A stretch of DNA of 64,000 nt, from the NCBI RefSeq assembly GCF_058153355.1, contig NZ_CM177019.1, one strand, 5' to 3'. The notes below the pieces were generated by a model, which was not told the DNA's origin, did not search any database, and saw only the letters and a program-made list of their open reading frames with translations. Position numbers and translations under genes: made by a program. Numbering within the stretch: position 1 is the stretch's first letter; the number at the start of each line of letters is the position of its first letter. Below, piece after piece: positions 14,799 through 22,726 of this stretch.

Positions 14799-14951
14799 CT
14801 ATTCTTTTTGATGGTGATTCCAGTCGTTCAGAGAGTACTAATACACCTTTGTGCAACGTCCGCTCCTGGCACAAAGCTGACCATCACCCTCCCTCCAAAT
14901 TAATGAACACATCTAATAAACCCTAGCTAATTACCCTATCTAATTGAATAA

Positions 14952-16867
<1,916 letters not shown>

Positions 16868-16891
16868 TACCCGGACGGGTCTACGGACCCG

Positions 16892-17824
<933 letters not shown>

Positions 17825-17933
17825 TCATGAAGGGTGTTCATAGACACAATCATTTTAGCCCCATTACTGACAATAATGATAATTGATATTCTGGTTGTAT
17901 CGAAAATAAGTCTGAATTATCAGAAGGTTTATC

Positions 17934-18707
17934 ATGAAAATACTCGTTGCAGGGGCGACAGGAAGCATTGGCCTTCATGTCGTGAATACCGCAATTAAAA
18001 TGGGCCATCAGCCCGTCGCGCTGGTCAGAAATAAACGCAAAGTAAAATTGCTTCCTCGTGAAACAGATGTTTTTTACGGCGATATTTCAATGCCGGAAAC
18101 ACTCACCGAATTACCGAAAGATATTGATGCCATCATCTTCACGCTCGGTTCTGATGTCCAGGGGCGTATTGGTGCCAGAGCGATCGATTACGGAGGAGTA
18201 CGTAATATTTTGCGAATATTCAAGGATACACCTGTCCATATCGCCCTGATGACCACGATTGGCGTGACTGAACGACTCAGCACCTGGAATCAACGTACTG
18301 AGGTTCATGACTGGAAAAGACGTGCCGAGCGTCTGGTCAGGGCAAGTGGTCATCCCTATACCATCGTCAGGCCCGGCTGGTTTGATTACAACAATGATAA
18401 TGAGCACAGAATCGTTATGCTTCAGGGAGACAGGCGTCATGCAGGAACACCGGAAGATGGTGTGATATCCCGGGGTCAAATCGCCCAGGTTCTGGTCAAT
18501 GCCCTGACCAACGATGAGGCAAAAAATAAAACGTTCGAGCTAGTGGCTGAGCGAGGCGAAGCACAGCAGGATCTTACCCCACTGTTTGCAGACCTGAAGA
18601 CTGATGATCCACAGAAAAATGATGGGGTTTTGGACATCGACAATATGTCTCTGCGTGAAGAACCTGAGTGCATTATCAAAGAGCTGAACCTGTATTCAAA
18701 AAATTAA
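17934..18707 (+). CDS. NAD(P)H-binding oxidoreductase (NmrA-like)
   Basis: 257 aa; MKILVAGATGSIGLHVV Rossmann motif. Confidence 0.75.
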   Translation: MKILVAGATGSIGLHVVNTAIKMGHQPVALVRNKRKVKLLPRETDVFYGDISMPETLTELPKDIDAIIFTLGSDVQGRIGARAIDYGGVRNILRIFKDTPVHIALMTTIGVTERLSTWNQRTEVHDWKRRAERLVRASGHPYTIVRPGWFDYNNDNEHRIVMLQGDRRHAGTPEDGVISRGQIAQVLVNALTNDEAKNKTFELVAERGEAQQDLTPLFADLKTDDPQKNDGVLDIDNMSLREEPECIIKELNLYSKN

Positions 18708-18848
18708 ACAATCTACAACCCTGACAATTTTGTCATATAGCAGTCAGCCTCATGACAGCTTAAGTCTGTATATTTGAATGTACAGAGGGGGATAGTTCCC
18801 CTGATACGAGCCCAGTTTCAAACACAAATTTTAAAAAAGGTATTAGAT

Positions 18849-19100
18849 ATGAAATCACTACTTATTACTTCATTGGTCATGGGATTTATTACAGTGAATA
18901 CCGCATCTGCCGCTCAGGAAATTAACCATGCAGATGGGAAAGAAAAGATCGGTGTAATATCAGCCAGCAATGCCTATACGCTTGATGATTTATCGAATGC
19001 GCTCTCTCGTAAGGCTGATGAGCAAGGAGCAACGTCGTTCAAAATTCTGTCAACCACGGGGAATAACCGGTTACACGGGGTTGCTGAAATATATAAGTAA
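18849..19100 (+). CDS. DUF1471 (YdgH/BhsA/McbA-family) small periplasmic stress protein
   Basis: Start moved to MKSLLITSLVMGFITVNTASA signal peptide; C-terminal GATSFKILSTTGNNRLHGVAEIYK matches the BhsA-type domain. Confidence 0.6.
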   Translation: MKSLLITSLVMGFITVNTASAAQEINHADGKEKIGVISASNAYTLDDLSNALSRKADEQGATSFKILSTTGNNRLHGVAEIYK

Positions 19101-19156
19101 ATCATTAGCATCCTGAGCAGGATGTGTCTCAGCCCTCTTATAGCGAGCGTCGTTCT

Positions 19157-19498
19157 ATGTTTAGAACAGAAGACATCATCGACGAGATAACTCAATGGAT
19201 TGATTCAAACTTACATAAACCGATGAAGATAGAGGATGTTGCTGCGCGGGCAGGATACTCCAAGTGGCATCTTCAGCGGATTTTTGTACAGGTAAAAGAA
19301 GTTAGTCTTGGGAAGTACATAAGAGATACGAAACTTAGACTAGCAGCAAAAGATCTTATCGAGACTAATGAGCCAGTGATGGTTATCGCCTTTAAATATG
19401 GATTCGATTCACAACAAACTTTTACTCGGGTTTTCTCTAAAAAATATAAATTGCCACCATTGAAATATAGAAACGCGGAAAAGAGAAAAAAACATTAA
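19157..19498 (+). CDS. AraC-family regulator of the MarA/SoxS/RamA type
   Basis: Start moved to ATG 19157; ~113 aa two-HTH protein (AARAGYSKWHLQRIF ... FKYGFDSQQTFTRVF). Confidence 0.7.
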   Translation: MFRTEDIIDEITQWIDSNLHKPMKIEDVAARAGYSKWHLQRIFVQVKEVSLGKYIRDTKLRLAAKDLIETNEPVMVIAFKYGFDSQQTFTRVFSKKYKLPPLKYRNAEKRKKH

Positions 19499-19878: not shown

Positions 19879-20436
19879 ATGGAATACCAAACTTCATTGC
19901 AGAAAATATTGTCAGATGACCCTGTGAGAATGAAGATTCTCTATGCAGTCCAAGCACTGGAACTCAATGATAGCTGGATTGGGGCGGGATTCGTACGGAA
20001 CGCTGTTTGGGATCACTTTCATGAATATGGGCTAAGCCCTGTTTCTGGTGATGTCGATGTTGTCTGGTTTGACTGCGAATACTGTAACCCAGACCATGAT
20101 CGTTACCTTGAAGACACGCTTAGGCAACAACTACCTTCGTTTGACTGGTCGGTGAAGAATCAAGCCAGAATGCATCAACGTAATGGTGATTCTCCCTATA
20201 CGTCAACGACAAATGCTTTACTGCACTGGCCTGAAACAGCTACGGCTGTAGCTGTCAGATTGGGTAAGAACGGTCTCGATATCACTGCGCCTTATGGACT
20301 TTCTGACTTATTTGAACTGCGTTTACGACCAACTCCTGCATTTGAACGTGAAAAGTTGGGTACTTTTAAACAACGGGTCACTACGAAGCAATGGTTGGAA
20401 CGTTATCCCAGGTTACAACTCACCGTTTCCTTATAA
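19879..20436 (+). CDS. Nucleotidyltransferase-family protein (DUF925-like)
   Basis: 185 aa; GAGFVRNAVWD ... GDVDVVWFD pattern typical of minimal Pol-beta-fold nucleotidyltransferases; assignment from memory. Confidence 0.5.
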   Translation: MEYQTSLQKILSDDPVRMKILYAVQALELNDSWIGAGFVRNAVWDHFHEYGLSPVSGDVDVVWFDCEYCNPDHDRYLEDTLRQQLPSFDWSVKNQARMHQRNGDSPYTSTTNALLHWPETATAVAVRLGKNGLDITAPYGLSDLFELRLRPTPAFEREKLGTFKQRVTTKQWLERYPRLQLTVSL

Positions 20437-20629: not shown

Positions 20630-20989
20630 TCATAAATCAGCACATTCTAGATTTCCAAGTTTCTGAATTACAGAATCTGGATTCGCACAGGCATACTCCA
20701 TGACACTTAACCAAACGATTTTTTGTTTCGGGAATCCGTTGTGGTAAAACTGATACCTCAGGCCGGGGGCACAGATGAGAAGAGCAGGATCTCGTGCCAT
20801 CAACATCTCAATGTCCGATTCAGTATCGTCAGCAAGAACACTCCAATCTAGCTGTAAACTATTCAGCTCACTTTGAAGAGCCTGAATGTATTTCTCAGTT
20901 AGAGAATATGGGAAATAGCCTCTAAGCAATGGCGAACGGCCTAGTGTAGGGCTGGGGCTATGGATAAAGTAAACGACCTTATTTGTCAT
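20630..20989 (-). CDS. Hypothetical protein, possible degenerate PTS EIIB (lactose/cellobiose type)-like fold
   Basis: 119 aa with perfect AAGGAG RBS; weak resemblance to ChbB-type EIIB but lacks the active-site Cys. Confidence 0.3.
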   Translation of the reverse strand: MTNKVVYFIHSPSPTLGRSPLLRGYFPYSLTEKYIQALQSELNSLQLDWSVLADDTESDIEMLMARDPALLICAPGLRYQFYHNGFPKQKIVWLSVMEYACANPDSVIQKLGNLECADL

Positions 20990-21292
20990 TGTTCTCCTTG
21001 TTTATGTTTATACAGCTATTAGTTGGTAACGAACTAACGGTTTGCCTCTACTTTCAGTGCTTTGGCGAACAATATTATATCTCATGTAAAAAGTATAACT
21101 TTTAGCCAATTGATATGCCAACGTCCACTCCTGGCACTAAGCAGGCTGTCAGACGAAAGTGTAACGTTTCAAAAGTAAGCGTAAATGCAAATCAGTACAA
21201 AAAAAATTACTGTGGTTGAACTCCTCCAGAACGGAGGAGCTAAGCTTTAGATTTCACGCTACCTACTGATAAGAACCAATTTAAGGTTCGTA

Positions 21293-22488
21293 TCATAAGG
21301 CCATGATTACTTTATATTTTCCAATGTTATCAATATAATCCGCATACCACTGCATCATCTCCCTACGTCCTTCCAAATACAACGCATGGTTATACGTCCC
21401 ACGAATCGCATTCTTATCAACGTGAGCCAGCTGGGTTTCAATCCACGCTGTATTGAACCCTTCCTCATGCAAAATCGTACTCATCGTGTGGCGGAAACCA
21501 TGCCCCGTGACCCTCCCCGTGTATCCAATCCGCTTAAACACCTGATTAATACTCGCTTCGCTCATTGTTTTGCGAGGGTCATTCCTCCCAGGAAACACTA
21601 GGGGATACTGTCCAGACATCACTTTGAGTTGCTGTACGATTTCCAGCGCTTGGGTAGAGAGGGGCACCAGATGAGACCGTTTCATCTTCATACGCTCTGC
21701 AGGTATTTCCCACACCGCTTTTTCAAGATCAAACTCACTCCAGAAAGCACCTCGAAGCTCGCCGGTGCGAACTCCCGTAAGGATCAGCAGCCGAGCGGCA
21801 AGAACAACTAGCGGGCTTCCTGTATAGCTGGATAGGGCTTTAAAGAAGTCTGGTAACTCTTCAACAGTCAGGAAGGGATATGTTTCGATTCATGCCCTGA
21901 CATCGCGCTGGTTATATCCGCGGCAGGATTGTATTCCGCACGACCAGTAACTATGGCGTAACGAAAGACTTCGCTGCAGCGCTGGCGAACCTTTTTGGCC
22001 TTCTCTGTCGCGCCACGGCTTTCCATTCGACGTAGCACATTAAGCAGAACCAGCGGTTTGATTTCATTCACCGGCAGTTGACCGATATAGGGGAAAATAT
22101 CTTTATTAAAGGCCTCCAGAATGTCAGAAGCATACCCTTCTGACCACCGGCTCACCTTCGTACCGTGCCATTCAAGCGCCACAGCCTGAAACGTATTATT
22201 GAGTTGCACATCGCGAACCAGCTTTTCTTCTTTCTTGGCGAAAGACGGATCGATGCCCTCGGCCAGCTTTTTCTTGGCTTCATCGCGTAGTGCCCTCGCT
22301 TGTACAAGGGACACTGCTGGATAGACACTAAAAGCCATACGCTTCTCTTTTCCATAGAAGCGATACTTCATCCGCCAGTATCTGGAACCAGGGGGAACAA
22401 CCTCAAGATACAAACCAGCACCATCCGCCAGCTTATAGGCTTTCTCTCTGGGTTTAGCAGCGTCTACCTGTCGTGCATTAAGCTTCAT
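21293..22488 (-). pseudogene. P4-type tyrosine integrase, disrupted (N-terminal and catalytic parts in different frames)
   Basis: N-terminal ORF 21868-22488 (DUF4102/SAM-like arm-binding) and C-terminal ORF 21293-21715 (HGFRHT, LAH, Y catalytic residues) separated by a frame break; adjacent to tRNA-Thr 3-prime end. Confidence 0.7.
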
Positions 22489-22650: not shown

Positions 22651-22726
22651 TGGTGCCGATAATAGGAGTCGAACCTACGACCTTCGCATTACGAATGCGC
22701 TGCTCTACCAACTGAGCTATATCGGC
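22651..22726 (-). tRNA. thrW: tRNA-Thr (anticodon CGU)
   Basis: 76-nt cloverleaf GCCGATATAGCTCAGTTGGTAGAGCAGCGCATTCGTAATGCGAAGGTCGTAGGTTCGACTCCTATTATCGGCACCA read on minus strand; CCA end faces integrase. Confidence 0.9.

What the first reader, a model, noticed from the sequence alone, without database searches (positions are those of the whole stretch)
20630..20989. Small protein with perfect RBS and possible degenerate PTS-EIIB-like fold near the integrase
The 119-aa ORF has an ideal AAGGAG RBS and a sequence pattern loosely resembling cellobiose-type EIIB proteins but without the phospho-acceptor Cys. It sits in AT-rich DNA beside the nucleotidyltransferase-family gene and the integrase remnant, which is typical mobile-element cargo of unknown function.
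Basis: inference. Interest (0 to 1): 0.3.

Follow-up and report, generated by a model that had tools for sequence, protein, structure and literature searches.

The report
Orphan EIIB-fold bacteriocin-immunity-like gene
This small E. coli gene is real. It encodes a soluble protein shaped like a sugar-transport (PTS EIIB) subunit without its catalytic cysteine. Its relatives sit inside gene clusters for a glycosylated antibacterial peptide, in the position an immunity gene usually occupies, so the E. coli copy is most likely a stray immunity gene.

Summary
The ORF at 20630-20989 (-), 119 aa, with AAGGAG 4 nt before the ATG, is confirmed. It lies in AT-rich DNA between an NTP_transf_6 gene and a split thrW integrase. 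The host is E. coli, yet the gene is absent from 5,426 complete E. coli genomes.

It belongs to a small, unannotated family under purifying selection (dN/dS 0.1-0.3).

The main new result is context. In nine independent loci, relatives sit in bacteriocin clusters: Enterobacter, Tenebrionibacter, Symbiopectobacterium, two metagenomic loci, and plasmids of Pantoea agglomerans, Edwardsiella tarda, Photobacterium damselae and Enterococcus faecalis. In eight of them the gene lies directly upstream of the double-glycine-leader precursor, overlapping it in five. The clusters usually also hold a SunS-like glycosyltransferase and, in five, a C39-ABC exporter or its remnant.

The window copy belongs to a derived clade found only as solo genes.

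Best reading, inferred and untested: an orphan cytoplasmic immunity protein. Its mechanism may be mimicry of EIIB at a PTS permease.

The parts
20630..20989 (-). 119-aa ORF: a soluble EIIB-fold protein, an orphan member of a family linked to bacteriocin clusters
   Evidence: ORF; homologues; AF2 model; fold matches; no TM helix; dN/dS
20994..20999 (-). Shine-Dalgarno AAGGAG, 4 nt upstream of the ATG
   Evidence: read directly from the sequence
21092..21121 (-). sigma-70-like promoter candidate (TTGGCA-18-TATACT, 10/12), about 100 nt upstream of the ATG; weak evidence only
   Evidence: 3 sites found against 2.6 expected by chance, so not significant on its own
19879..20436 (+). convergent neighbour, an NTP_transf_6 (PF06042) nucleotidyltransferase; context only, not a conserved partner
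   Evidence: Pfam E 7.7e-55; found next to the ORF only in near-identical E. coli contigs
21293..21715 (-). integrase pseudogene, C-terminal catalytic fragment
   Evidence: PF00589 E 1.5e-16; NF007246 positions 267-401 of 413
21868..22488 (-). integrase pseudogene, N-terminal arm-binding and central-domain fragment
   Evidence: PF13356 and PF22022; NF007246 positions 8-213
22651..22726 (-). tRNA-Thr(CGU) (thrW), the island's attachment site next to proA
   Evidence: ARAGORN; proBA-tRNA-Thr is 98.7% identical to E. coli

Best explanation
The ORF is a functional gene for a small cytoplasmic alpha/beta protein. Its fold is that of a cellobiose/chitobiose-type PTS EIIB, but it lacks the catalytic cysteine.

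Its family began as a core gene of a bacteriocin cluster that has not been described. Those clusters encode a double-glycine-leader peptide (some carry a microcin-V-like or a Ser-rich class IIb-like tail), usually a SunS-family peptide glycosyltransferase, and in five of the nine loci a C39-ABC exporter or its remnant, with an HlyD-type partner in the Gram-negative ones. In eight of the nine loci the family gene sits immediately upstream of the peptide gene; in five the two overlap by 11-17 nt.

I infer that the family encodes the immunity protein of this bacteriocin. I infer that the E. coli copy, from a derived clade found only as solo genes, is an orphan immunity gene acquired on a thrW island. 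It would protect its host against producers without the host making the peptide.

Because the protein is soluble, it must act from the cytoplasmic side. The mechanism I favour is that it acts as a catalytically dead EIIB mimic. It would dock on the cytoplasmic face of a Lac/Cel-family PTS permease, or on its EIIA, that the glycopeptide uses as receptor, and so block that step.

Shown: the gene is real, the fold, the lack of a TM helix, purifying selection, and the gene-cluster association. Inferred: the immunity role. Speculative: the PTS-mimic mechanism.
For: Real and selected: homologues; dN/dS 0.09-0.29.

Soluble: maximum Kyte-Doolittle 19-residue mean is below 1.6 in all members.

Cluster association, nine independent loci (HMM scan):
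- L012-14, GT->fam->precursor with cvaA/cvaB remnants
- Enterobacter L026, GT->fam->precursor
- Tenebrionibacter L025, fam->precursor
- Symbiopectobacterium L021, degenerate
- Firmicute L030, precursor, GT, then C39-ABC->fam->paralogue
- E. faecalis pEF01-2, fam->precursor->GT->ABC->accessory protein
- P. agglomerans plasmid, GT->fam->precursor beside mchC, an acyltransferase gene and an HlyD gene
- E. tarda plasmid and P. damselae pPHDD1, fam->precursor->GT->HlyD->ABC

fam and precursor overlap by 11-17 nt in five loci.

The GT is SunS-like: TIGR04195 at E 2e-41 and 2e-45; ThuS 7msk at E 1.5e-34. The precursors form one family (A3). L026 also hits Pfam MccV at E 2.6e-13.

In pPHDD1 the cluster is followed by transposase-like ORFs on one side and preceded by DNA with only short ORFs (<70 aa) on the other, so no other immunity candidate is apparent.

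The family gene tracks the shared N-terminal core of the peptide, while the C-terminal tails vary.

In the NJ tree, cluster-linked members are basal and paraphyletic. The window copy is in a derived all-solo clade.

Literature: verified microcin immunity genes lie immediately adjacent to their microcin (PMC12219008). Sublancin, a glycocin, depends on an active sugar PTS (title cited in PMC8620827).
Against: There is no experiment. The immunity role rests on gene position, on elimination of other candidates, and on the persistence of solo copies.

Verified class II microcin immunity proteins are membrane proteins with TM helices. This one has none.

The window carries no precursor, GT or exporter, so its present role cannot be read from context. 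The solo clade may have taken on another function.

No PTS gene is consistently nearby. One distant member follows a Glc-family EIICBA gene.

The Firmicute cluster L030 also has a 111-aa TM protein 1.4 kb downstream that could be the immunity protein there.

The tree is a simple NJ tree without support values.
Confidence: 0.45

Rival explanations
1. It is an immunity protein, but it works by binding and sequestering the glyco-peptide itself in the cytoplasm. The sugar-handling face of the EIIB-like fold would do the binding, rather than docking on a PTS permease.
For: The protein is soluble. The most conserved residues are D54, T56, D59, P75, G76 and L77. They lie in the loops after beta-2 and beta-3 of the model, the edge where alpha/beta folds usually bind ligands. 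The gene co-varies with the shared peptide core.
Against: No evidence shows that the peptide reaches the cytoplasm of target cells. No binding data exist. The tools could not model a complex.
Confidence: 0.2
2. It is a biosynthetic accessory of the SunS-like glycosyltransferase, for example a peptide- or sugar-nucleotide-presenting chaperone, and not an immunity protein. Under this reading the window copy would be a useless relic.
For: GT and fam overlap by 1-11 nt in L012, L026 and L035. The EIIB fold is a sugar-phosphate-handling fold.
Against: L025 has fam and the precursor without a GT within 8 kb. About 21 loci carry the gene alone, and the solo clade is under purifying selection at dN/dS 0.1-0.3. 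A relic or an accessory without its enzyme would not be under such selection. In this reading the five-gene clusters would lack any immunity gene.
Confidence: 0.12
3. The solo clade, including the window copy, has taken on a function unrelated to bacteriocins. One example would be a small regulator or competitor of a Lac/Cel-family PTS or of carbon-source signalling.
For: Every member of the 119-aa clade is solo, in variable chromosomal and plasmid contexts. The clade has its own invariant motifs, including G17, R18 and C73, that are not kept in the wider family. A distant solo member sits directly after a BglG-type antiterminator and a PTS EIICBA gene.
Against: There is no consistent metabolic or PTS neighbour. 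The patchy, island- and plasmid-borne, very rare distribution (0 of 5,426 complete E. coli genomes; 14 of 100,044 species genomes) fits a gene for interbacterial competition better than a housekeeping regulator.
Confidence: 0.18
4. It is a spurious or decaying ORF in degraded island DNA.
For: It lies next to a split integrase in AT-rich DNA. No terminator was found, and the promoter match is not above chance.
Against: It is full length and aligns end to end with homologues of 43-77% identity. dN/dS is well below 1. It has a strong SD and a confident fold prediction.
Confidence: 0.04

Closest known systems
PTS enzyme IIB, lactose/cellobiose/chitobiose type (Pfam PF02302; E. coli ChbB, PDB 1iib/1e2b/2wy2)
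   Different: No Pfam hit for the window protein. The catalytic Cys10 position is His here and is not conserved. The gene is never seen in a Lac/Cel-type PTS operon with EIIC and EIIA. It has its own conserved D-x-T-x-x-D and P-G-L motifs.
Class II microcin immunity proteins (Cvi, MchI, MceB and others)
   Same: Small, encoded immediately next to the precursor gene and often overlapping it, in a cluster with a C39-ABC/HlyD exporter. Some of the precursors here even carry a microcin-V-type C-terminal domain.
   Different: Verified microcin immunity proteins are inner-membrane proteins with TM helices (PMC12219008). This family is soluble and has an EIIB fold.
Glycocin gene clusters (sublancin sunA/sunS/sunT/sunI; enterocin F4-9 enfA49/enfC/enfT/enfI; glycocin F)
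   Same: They share a SunS-family GT2, a double-glycine-leader peptide and a C39 ABC transporter. Sublancin activity depends on a sugar PTS (cited in PMC8620827).
   Different: The clusters examined here have no thiol-disulfide oxidoreductase genes. The peptides are Gly/Trp-rich with one or two Cys, not the helix-hairpin type with two disulfides. EnfI is described as a possible membrane protein of 98 aa and SunI is membrane-anchored (my own knowledge). I did not compare either sequence with this family.
Pediocin-like (class IIa) bacteriocin immunity proteins (PedB and EntA-im type)
   Same: From my own knowledge, not tested here: these are cytosolic immunity proteins that protect by engaging a PTS permease (man-PTS) from the cytoplasmic side. 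That is the same logic as the mechanism proposed here.
   Different: They are four-helix bundles, not an EIIB fold. Their target is the mannose PTS. No homology was detected.

Membership tests
PTS EIIB, lactose/cellobiose family (PF02302) | EIIB-cellobiose alpha/beta fold | tested here: met
PTS EIIB, lactose/cellobiose family (PF02302) | Sequence match to the family profile above the curated threshold | tested here: not met
   The window protein has no Pfam or NCBIfam hit. Only 5 of 41 relatives hit PF02302 weakly, best E 0.0021. The PDB profile search found no EIIB.
PTS EIIB, lactose/cellobiose family (PF02302) | Phospho-acceptor cysteine in the loop after beta-1 (ChbB Cys10) | tested here: not met
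   The window has His10. Across 41 relatives the position is Y15, H9, F5, W5, S4, C2, I1.
PTS EIIB, lactose/cellobiose family (PF02302) | Encoded with cognate EIIC and EIIA | tested here: not met
   No PTS genes flank it in the window or in about 30 related loci. One distant member follows a Glc-family EIICBA gene.
Class II microcin / bacteriocin immunity protein | Small gene immediately adjacent to the bacteriocin precursor gene | tested here: inconclusive
   Met for relatives in eight loci, with overlaps of 11-17 nt in five. Not met for the window copy, which has no precursor within 64 kb.
Class II microcin / bacteriocin immunity protein | Inner-membrane localisation (TM helices) | tested here: not met
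   Maximum 19-residue Kyte-Doolittle mean is 0.59-1.54 across 30 members. The model is a globular alpha/beta domain.
Class II microcin / bacteriocin immunity protein | Confers specific protection against the cognate bacteriocin | not testable with these tools
   This needs expression in a sensitive strain and a killing assay.
Glycocin-type biosynthetic gene cluster component | Co-located SunS-family glycosyltransferase, double-glycine-leader peptide and C39 ABC exporter | tested here: inconclusive
   Met for relatives. Absent from the window.

The most novel reading that the evidence does not exclude
A bacteriocin family has gone unrecognised across Enterococcus and other Firmicutes, Enterobacterales and Vibrionaceae. 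Its peptides share a core, are modified by a SunS-type glycosyltransferase, and are fused in Gram-negatives to microcin-V-type or siderophore-type uptake tails. Its immunity protein is of a new kind: a soluble, catalytically dead EIIB mimic that protects by occupying the EIIB docking site of a Lac/Cel-family PTS permease, which would be the bacteriocin's receptor. The E. coli ORF would then be an orphan immunity gene from this system, spread on islands and plasmids.
Probability: 0.2. Interest if true: 0.75.

Novelty: new variant of a known kind. Interest (0 to 1): 0.5.

Why it matters
If the inference holds, it adds a structurally new class of bacteriocin immunity protein: soluble, EIIB-fold, and contrary to the rule that microcin immunity proteins are membrane proteins.

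It points to a testable receptor hypothesis, a Lac/Cel-type PTS permease, for peptides that may be useful as narrow-spectrum antimicrobials.

Current microcin-mining pipelines look for TM-containing immunity genes (PMC12219008), so they would miss these systems and their orphan immunity genes.

For this window alone the practical message is modest. It is a very rare E. coli accessory gene that probably affects interbacterial competition rather than metabolism.

Tried and rejected
1. Pairing with the NTP_transf_6 gene. It is found only in near-identical E. coli contigs (L001-L003) and in no other genome. Rejected.

2. Anti-phage defence or phage origin. No PADLOC or PHROGs hits for the ORF or its relatives, and only a negligible PADLOC hit (E 0.06) for the NTase. 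No tblastn hit in 50,697 phage records. Rejected.

3. Remnants of a precursor or GT gene beside the window ORF. tblastn with 8 precursors and 6 GTs at E up to 50 against 19.4-21.4 kb gave only chance-level hits (best E about 0.2). The HMM scan of the whole window found only the family gene. None present.

4. Sequence search of PDB with the single protein and with the family profile. Only chance hits such as myosin and antibodies. Uninformative.

5. The source annotation 'nitrogen fixation protein NifS'. No search returned a NifS or aminotransferase family. Treated as a misnomer.

6. The search for related loci with the broad alignment A2 failed because the sequences are too diverse. I used A1 instead.

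7. The afdb50 fold library was not available.

8. Literature searches for GccH, for EIIB-like immunity, and for microcins with a SunS-type GT found no description of this family. The library lacks most subscription papers, so absence is not proof.

9. Whether glycocin F immunity protein GccH belongs to this family could not be checked, because no sequence was at hand.

10. The promoter and terminator scan was not above chance.

Full report
**1. The observation**

The minus-strand ORF at 20630-20989 encodes 119 aa from an ATG. The mRNA reads AAGGAG-AACA-ATG, so the Shine-Dalgarno motif is perfect and the spacer is 4 nt.

The surrounding 18.5-21.5 kb has 40-45% GC, against 50-57% in the flanks.

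The convergent neighbour at 19879-20436 is an NTP_transf_6 protein (PF06042, E 7.7e-55). Upstream lies a P4-type integrase split into two ORFs, 21293-21715 and 21868-22488. Next comes tRNA-Thr(CGU) at 22651-22726, followed by proA and proB.

The proBA-thrW segment is 98.7% identical to E. coli, so the host is E. coli.

The ORF region has no match in 5,426 complete E. coli genomes, either by megablast or by sensitive blastn. The block to its left, 14.86-19.5 kb, carries two aldo-keto reductase genes, LysR, an SDR/NmrA gene, a YdgH/BhsA gene and a RamA-like gene. It occurs at about 91% identity in other E. coli.

The identical locus is found in one E. coli assembly and one sequencing-run contig.

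**2. It is a real gene**

There are 32 homologue clusters of 43-77% identity and nearly the same length. They come from Pantoea, Rouxiella, Mangrovibacter and other Enterobacterales. All are annotated 'hypothetical', or oddly 'NifS'.

Fifteen columns are invariant: G17, R18, G24, L38, D54, T56, E57, S58, L70, C73, P75, G76, L77, Q80 and G85.

An exhaustive HMMER scan of 1.84 billion representatives found only 53 relatives at E <= 1e-3. A scan of one genome for each of 100,044 species found 14 loci, all in Enterobacterales. The family is small and patchy.

Within the window's clade, pairwise dN/dS is 0.09-0.29, and 0.15-0.29 for pairs where synonymous sites are not saturated. That indicates purifying selection.

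No Pfam, NCBIfam, PADLOC or PHROGs family matches. There is no phage homologue.

**3. Fold**

AlphaFold2 with the family alignment gives pLDDT 80.1 and pTM 0.75. The topology is beta-alpha-beta-alpha-beta-beta-alpha-alpha. The only poorly modelled part is the loop at residues 17-22.

The six best Foldseek hits against PDB are all cellobiose/chitobiose-type EIIB: 4mge chains A and B, 1iib, 2l2q, 2wy2 and 1h9c. They score prob 1.00 and TM 0.53-0.71.

At sequence level, 5 of 41 members hit PF02302 weakly; only one other Pfam family recurs, in two members. hhalign against E. coli ChbB gives E 0.015 in the expected register.

ChbB's phospho-acceptor Cys10 corresponds to His10 here. Across 41 relatives the position is Y/H/F/W/S, with Cys in only 2.

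No member has a hydrophobic stretch compatible with a TM helix.

The most conserved positions across the wide family are D54 (40/41), T/S56, D/N59, P75, G76, L77 and L94. D54 to L77 lie in the loops after beta-2 and beta-3 of the model. By general knowledge of alpha/beta folds, that edge of the sheet holds the EIIB active site and its EIIA/EIIC interface.

**4. Genomic context of relatives**

This is the main new result. The window's closest relatives are solo genes in unrelated contexts. Examples include a position next to IncFII repA (L004), one between tus and fumC (L007-9), one next to an Rhs toxin array (L011), and sites on Pantoea and Duffyella plasmids.

More distant relatives sit in bacteriocin clusters. 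I built HMMs from the precursors, the glycosyltransferases and the family, and scanned all ORFs of 41 loci. Nine independent cluster-type loci emerged:

- L012-14 (metagenome): GT->fam->precursor, with cvaA/cvaB-like remnants alongside.
- Enterobacter sp. BIGb0383: GT->fam->precursor.
- Tenebrionibacter: fam->precursor.
- Symbiopectobacterium: a degenerate copy.
- A Firmicute locus: precursor, GT, then C39-ABC->fam->a paralogue.
- E. faecalis pEF01-2 and 13 other plasmids: fam->precursor->GT2->peptide cleavage/export ABC transporter->secretion accessory protein.
- A P. agglomerans megaplasmid: GT->fam->precursor, next to a GT1 gene, mchC, an acyltransferase gene and an HlyD gene.
- E. tarda pEtSC002-2: fam->precursor->GT->HlyD->C39-ABC.
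- P. damselae pPHDD1: fam->precursor->GT->HlyD->C39-ABC.

fam and the precursor overlap by 11-17 nt in five loci, which suggests translational coupling.

The GTs are SunS-family relatives: TIGR04195 at E 2e-41 and 2e-45 (below the equivalog cutoff), ThuS 7msk at E 1.5e-34 and SunS at about 1e-27.

The eight precursors align as one family. Each has a double-glycine-type leader and a core of the form G-W/Y-x-x-G-x-x-x-V/I-W ... C-S-W/Y-P ... G-x-C.

The tails are modular. Two precursors have a microcin-V-like C-terminal domain (Pfam MccV, E 2.6e-13). One has a Ser-rich class IIb-like tail. The others have none.

A database search with the precursor profile found 30 clusters. All are labelled 'hypothetical' or 'colicin V family bacteriocin'.

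**5. Interpretation**

Each complete cluster accounts for a peptide, a modifying enzyme and an exporter. The one function left unassigned is immunity, and the one gene left unassigned is this family.

In pPHDD1 the five genes are preceded by DNA with only short ORFs (<70 aa) and followed by transposase-like ORFs, so no other candidate is apparent.

Verified microcin immunity genes lie immediately adjacent to their microcin (PMC12219008). That is the position seen here.

The family gene tracks the shared N-terminal core rather than the variable tails. In Tenebrionibacter it occurs with the precursor but without the GT. About 21 loci carry it alone, under purifying selection. All of this fits an immunity gene with orphan copies better than a biosynthetic accessory.

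In an NJ tree, cluster-linked members are basal and paraphyletic. The window protein sits in a derived clade of twelve sequences, all solo. The tree has no support values, so this is indicative only.

I therefore read the window ORF as an orphan immunity-type gene brought in on a thrW island.

**6. Mechanism (inferred)**

The protein is soluble, so it must act on the cytoplasmic side. Two options are open.

(a) It mimics EIIB without the cysteine. It would occupy the EIIB site of a Lac/Cel-family EIIC or EIIA that the glycopeptide needs.

(b) It binds the peptide itself.

Option (a) draws on three things. The first is the fold. The second is the reported dependence of the glycocin sublancin on an active sugar PTS (title cited in PMC8620827). 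The third, from my own knowledge, is the precedent of cytosolic pediocin-type immunity proteins that lock the mannose PTS. It remains speculative, because no PTS gene is consistently linked to the family. One distant solo member follows a BglG-type antiterminator and an EIICBA gene.

**7. Comparison with known families and novelty**

The protein has the EIIB fold, but it fails three defining EIIB features: the profile match, the catalytic Cys and the PTS operon context. It should not be filed as an EIIB.

It occupies the place of a microcin or glycocin immunity protein but lacks the TM helices that the verified ones have.

I found no paper describing an EIIB-like immunity protein or a SunS-type GT in a microcin cluster. 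The searchable library is incomplete, and I could not compare the family with GccH.

I rate it a new variant of a known kind. The window ORF itself is an orphan copy. The wider interest lies in the family and its clusters.

**8. Confidence**

| Claim | Confidence |
|---|---|
| Real gene with an EIIB-like fold | about 0.9 |
| Family is ancestrally a bacteriocin-cluster gene | about 0.85 |
| Family encodes the immunity protein | about 0.55 |
| Window copy acts as orphan immunity | about 0.45 |
| EIIB-mimic mechanism at a PTS permease | about 0.2 |

Noticed in passing
L035:6001-6366, L036:5998-6375, P0004 (UniRef name): Several family members are annotated 'nitrogen fixation protein NifS' in RefSeq and UniRef. 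No search here returned a NifS or aminotransferase family. It looks like a propagated misnomer.
   Followed up: partly
L004:6625-6906 (-), L005:6593-6874 (-), L017:6759-7031 (-): A conserved 93-aa predicted membrane protein (MKIYW(S/T)L(K/R)SIPEL..., 56-58% identity) recurs within about 1 kb of solo family genes in Pantoea cypripedii, Rouxiella and Pantoea latae. It is absent from the window. It could be a partner, or just a co-transferred fragment.
   Followed up: partly
L026:8359-8676, L025:8356-8649, L035:6356-6616, L036:6362-6574, L037:2200-2400, L034:8406-8606, L030:3167-3424: The bacteriocin precursors are modular. One shared leader and N-terminal core is joined to a microcin-V-like disulfide tail, to a Ser-rich class IIb (siderophore-type) tail next to mchC and GT1 genes, or to no tail. 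The same core occurs in Enterococcus and other Firmicutes, in Enterobacterales and in Photobacterium.
   Followed up: partly
window 21293-22488 (-): The thrW-adjacent P4-type integrase is split into two ORFs, with a gap at 21716-21867. It is a pseudogene, so the island is probably fixed in place.
   Followed up: partly
window 14858-19495: This block holds two aldo-keto reductase genes, LysR, an NmrA/SDR gene, a YdgH/BhsA gene and a RamA/MarA-like AraC regulator gene. It is only about 91% identical to its counterparts in other E. coli, and in one case it lies on a plasmid. It appears to be a divergent accessory module.
   Followed up: no
L012:2584-3284 (-): Short ORFs match the C-terminus of a CvaB-like ABC exporter and the N-terminus and middle of a CvaA/HlyD protein. 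They are the decayed exporter of the adjacent GT-fam-precursor operon, which lies next to the arn operon.
   Followed up: partly
L044:3865-7339: A distant solo family member (P0058) lies directly downstream of a BglG-type antiterminator and a PTS EIICBA gene in a Firmicute chromosome. It is the only PTS adjacency seen.
   Followed up: no
L030:7346-7711: In the Firmicute cluster the family gene is followed immediately by a divergent paralogue of 121 aa (family HMM E 6.6e-13). This suggests a tandem pair of immunity-like genes.
   Followed up: no
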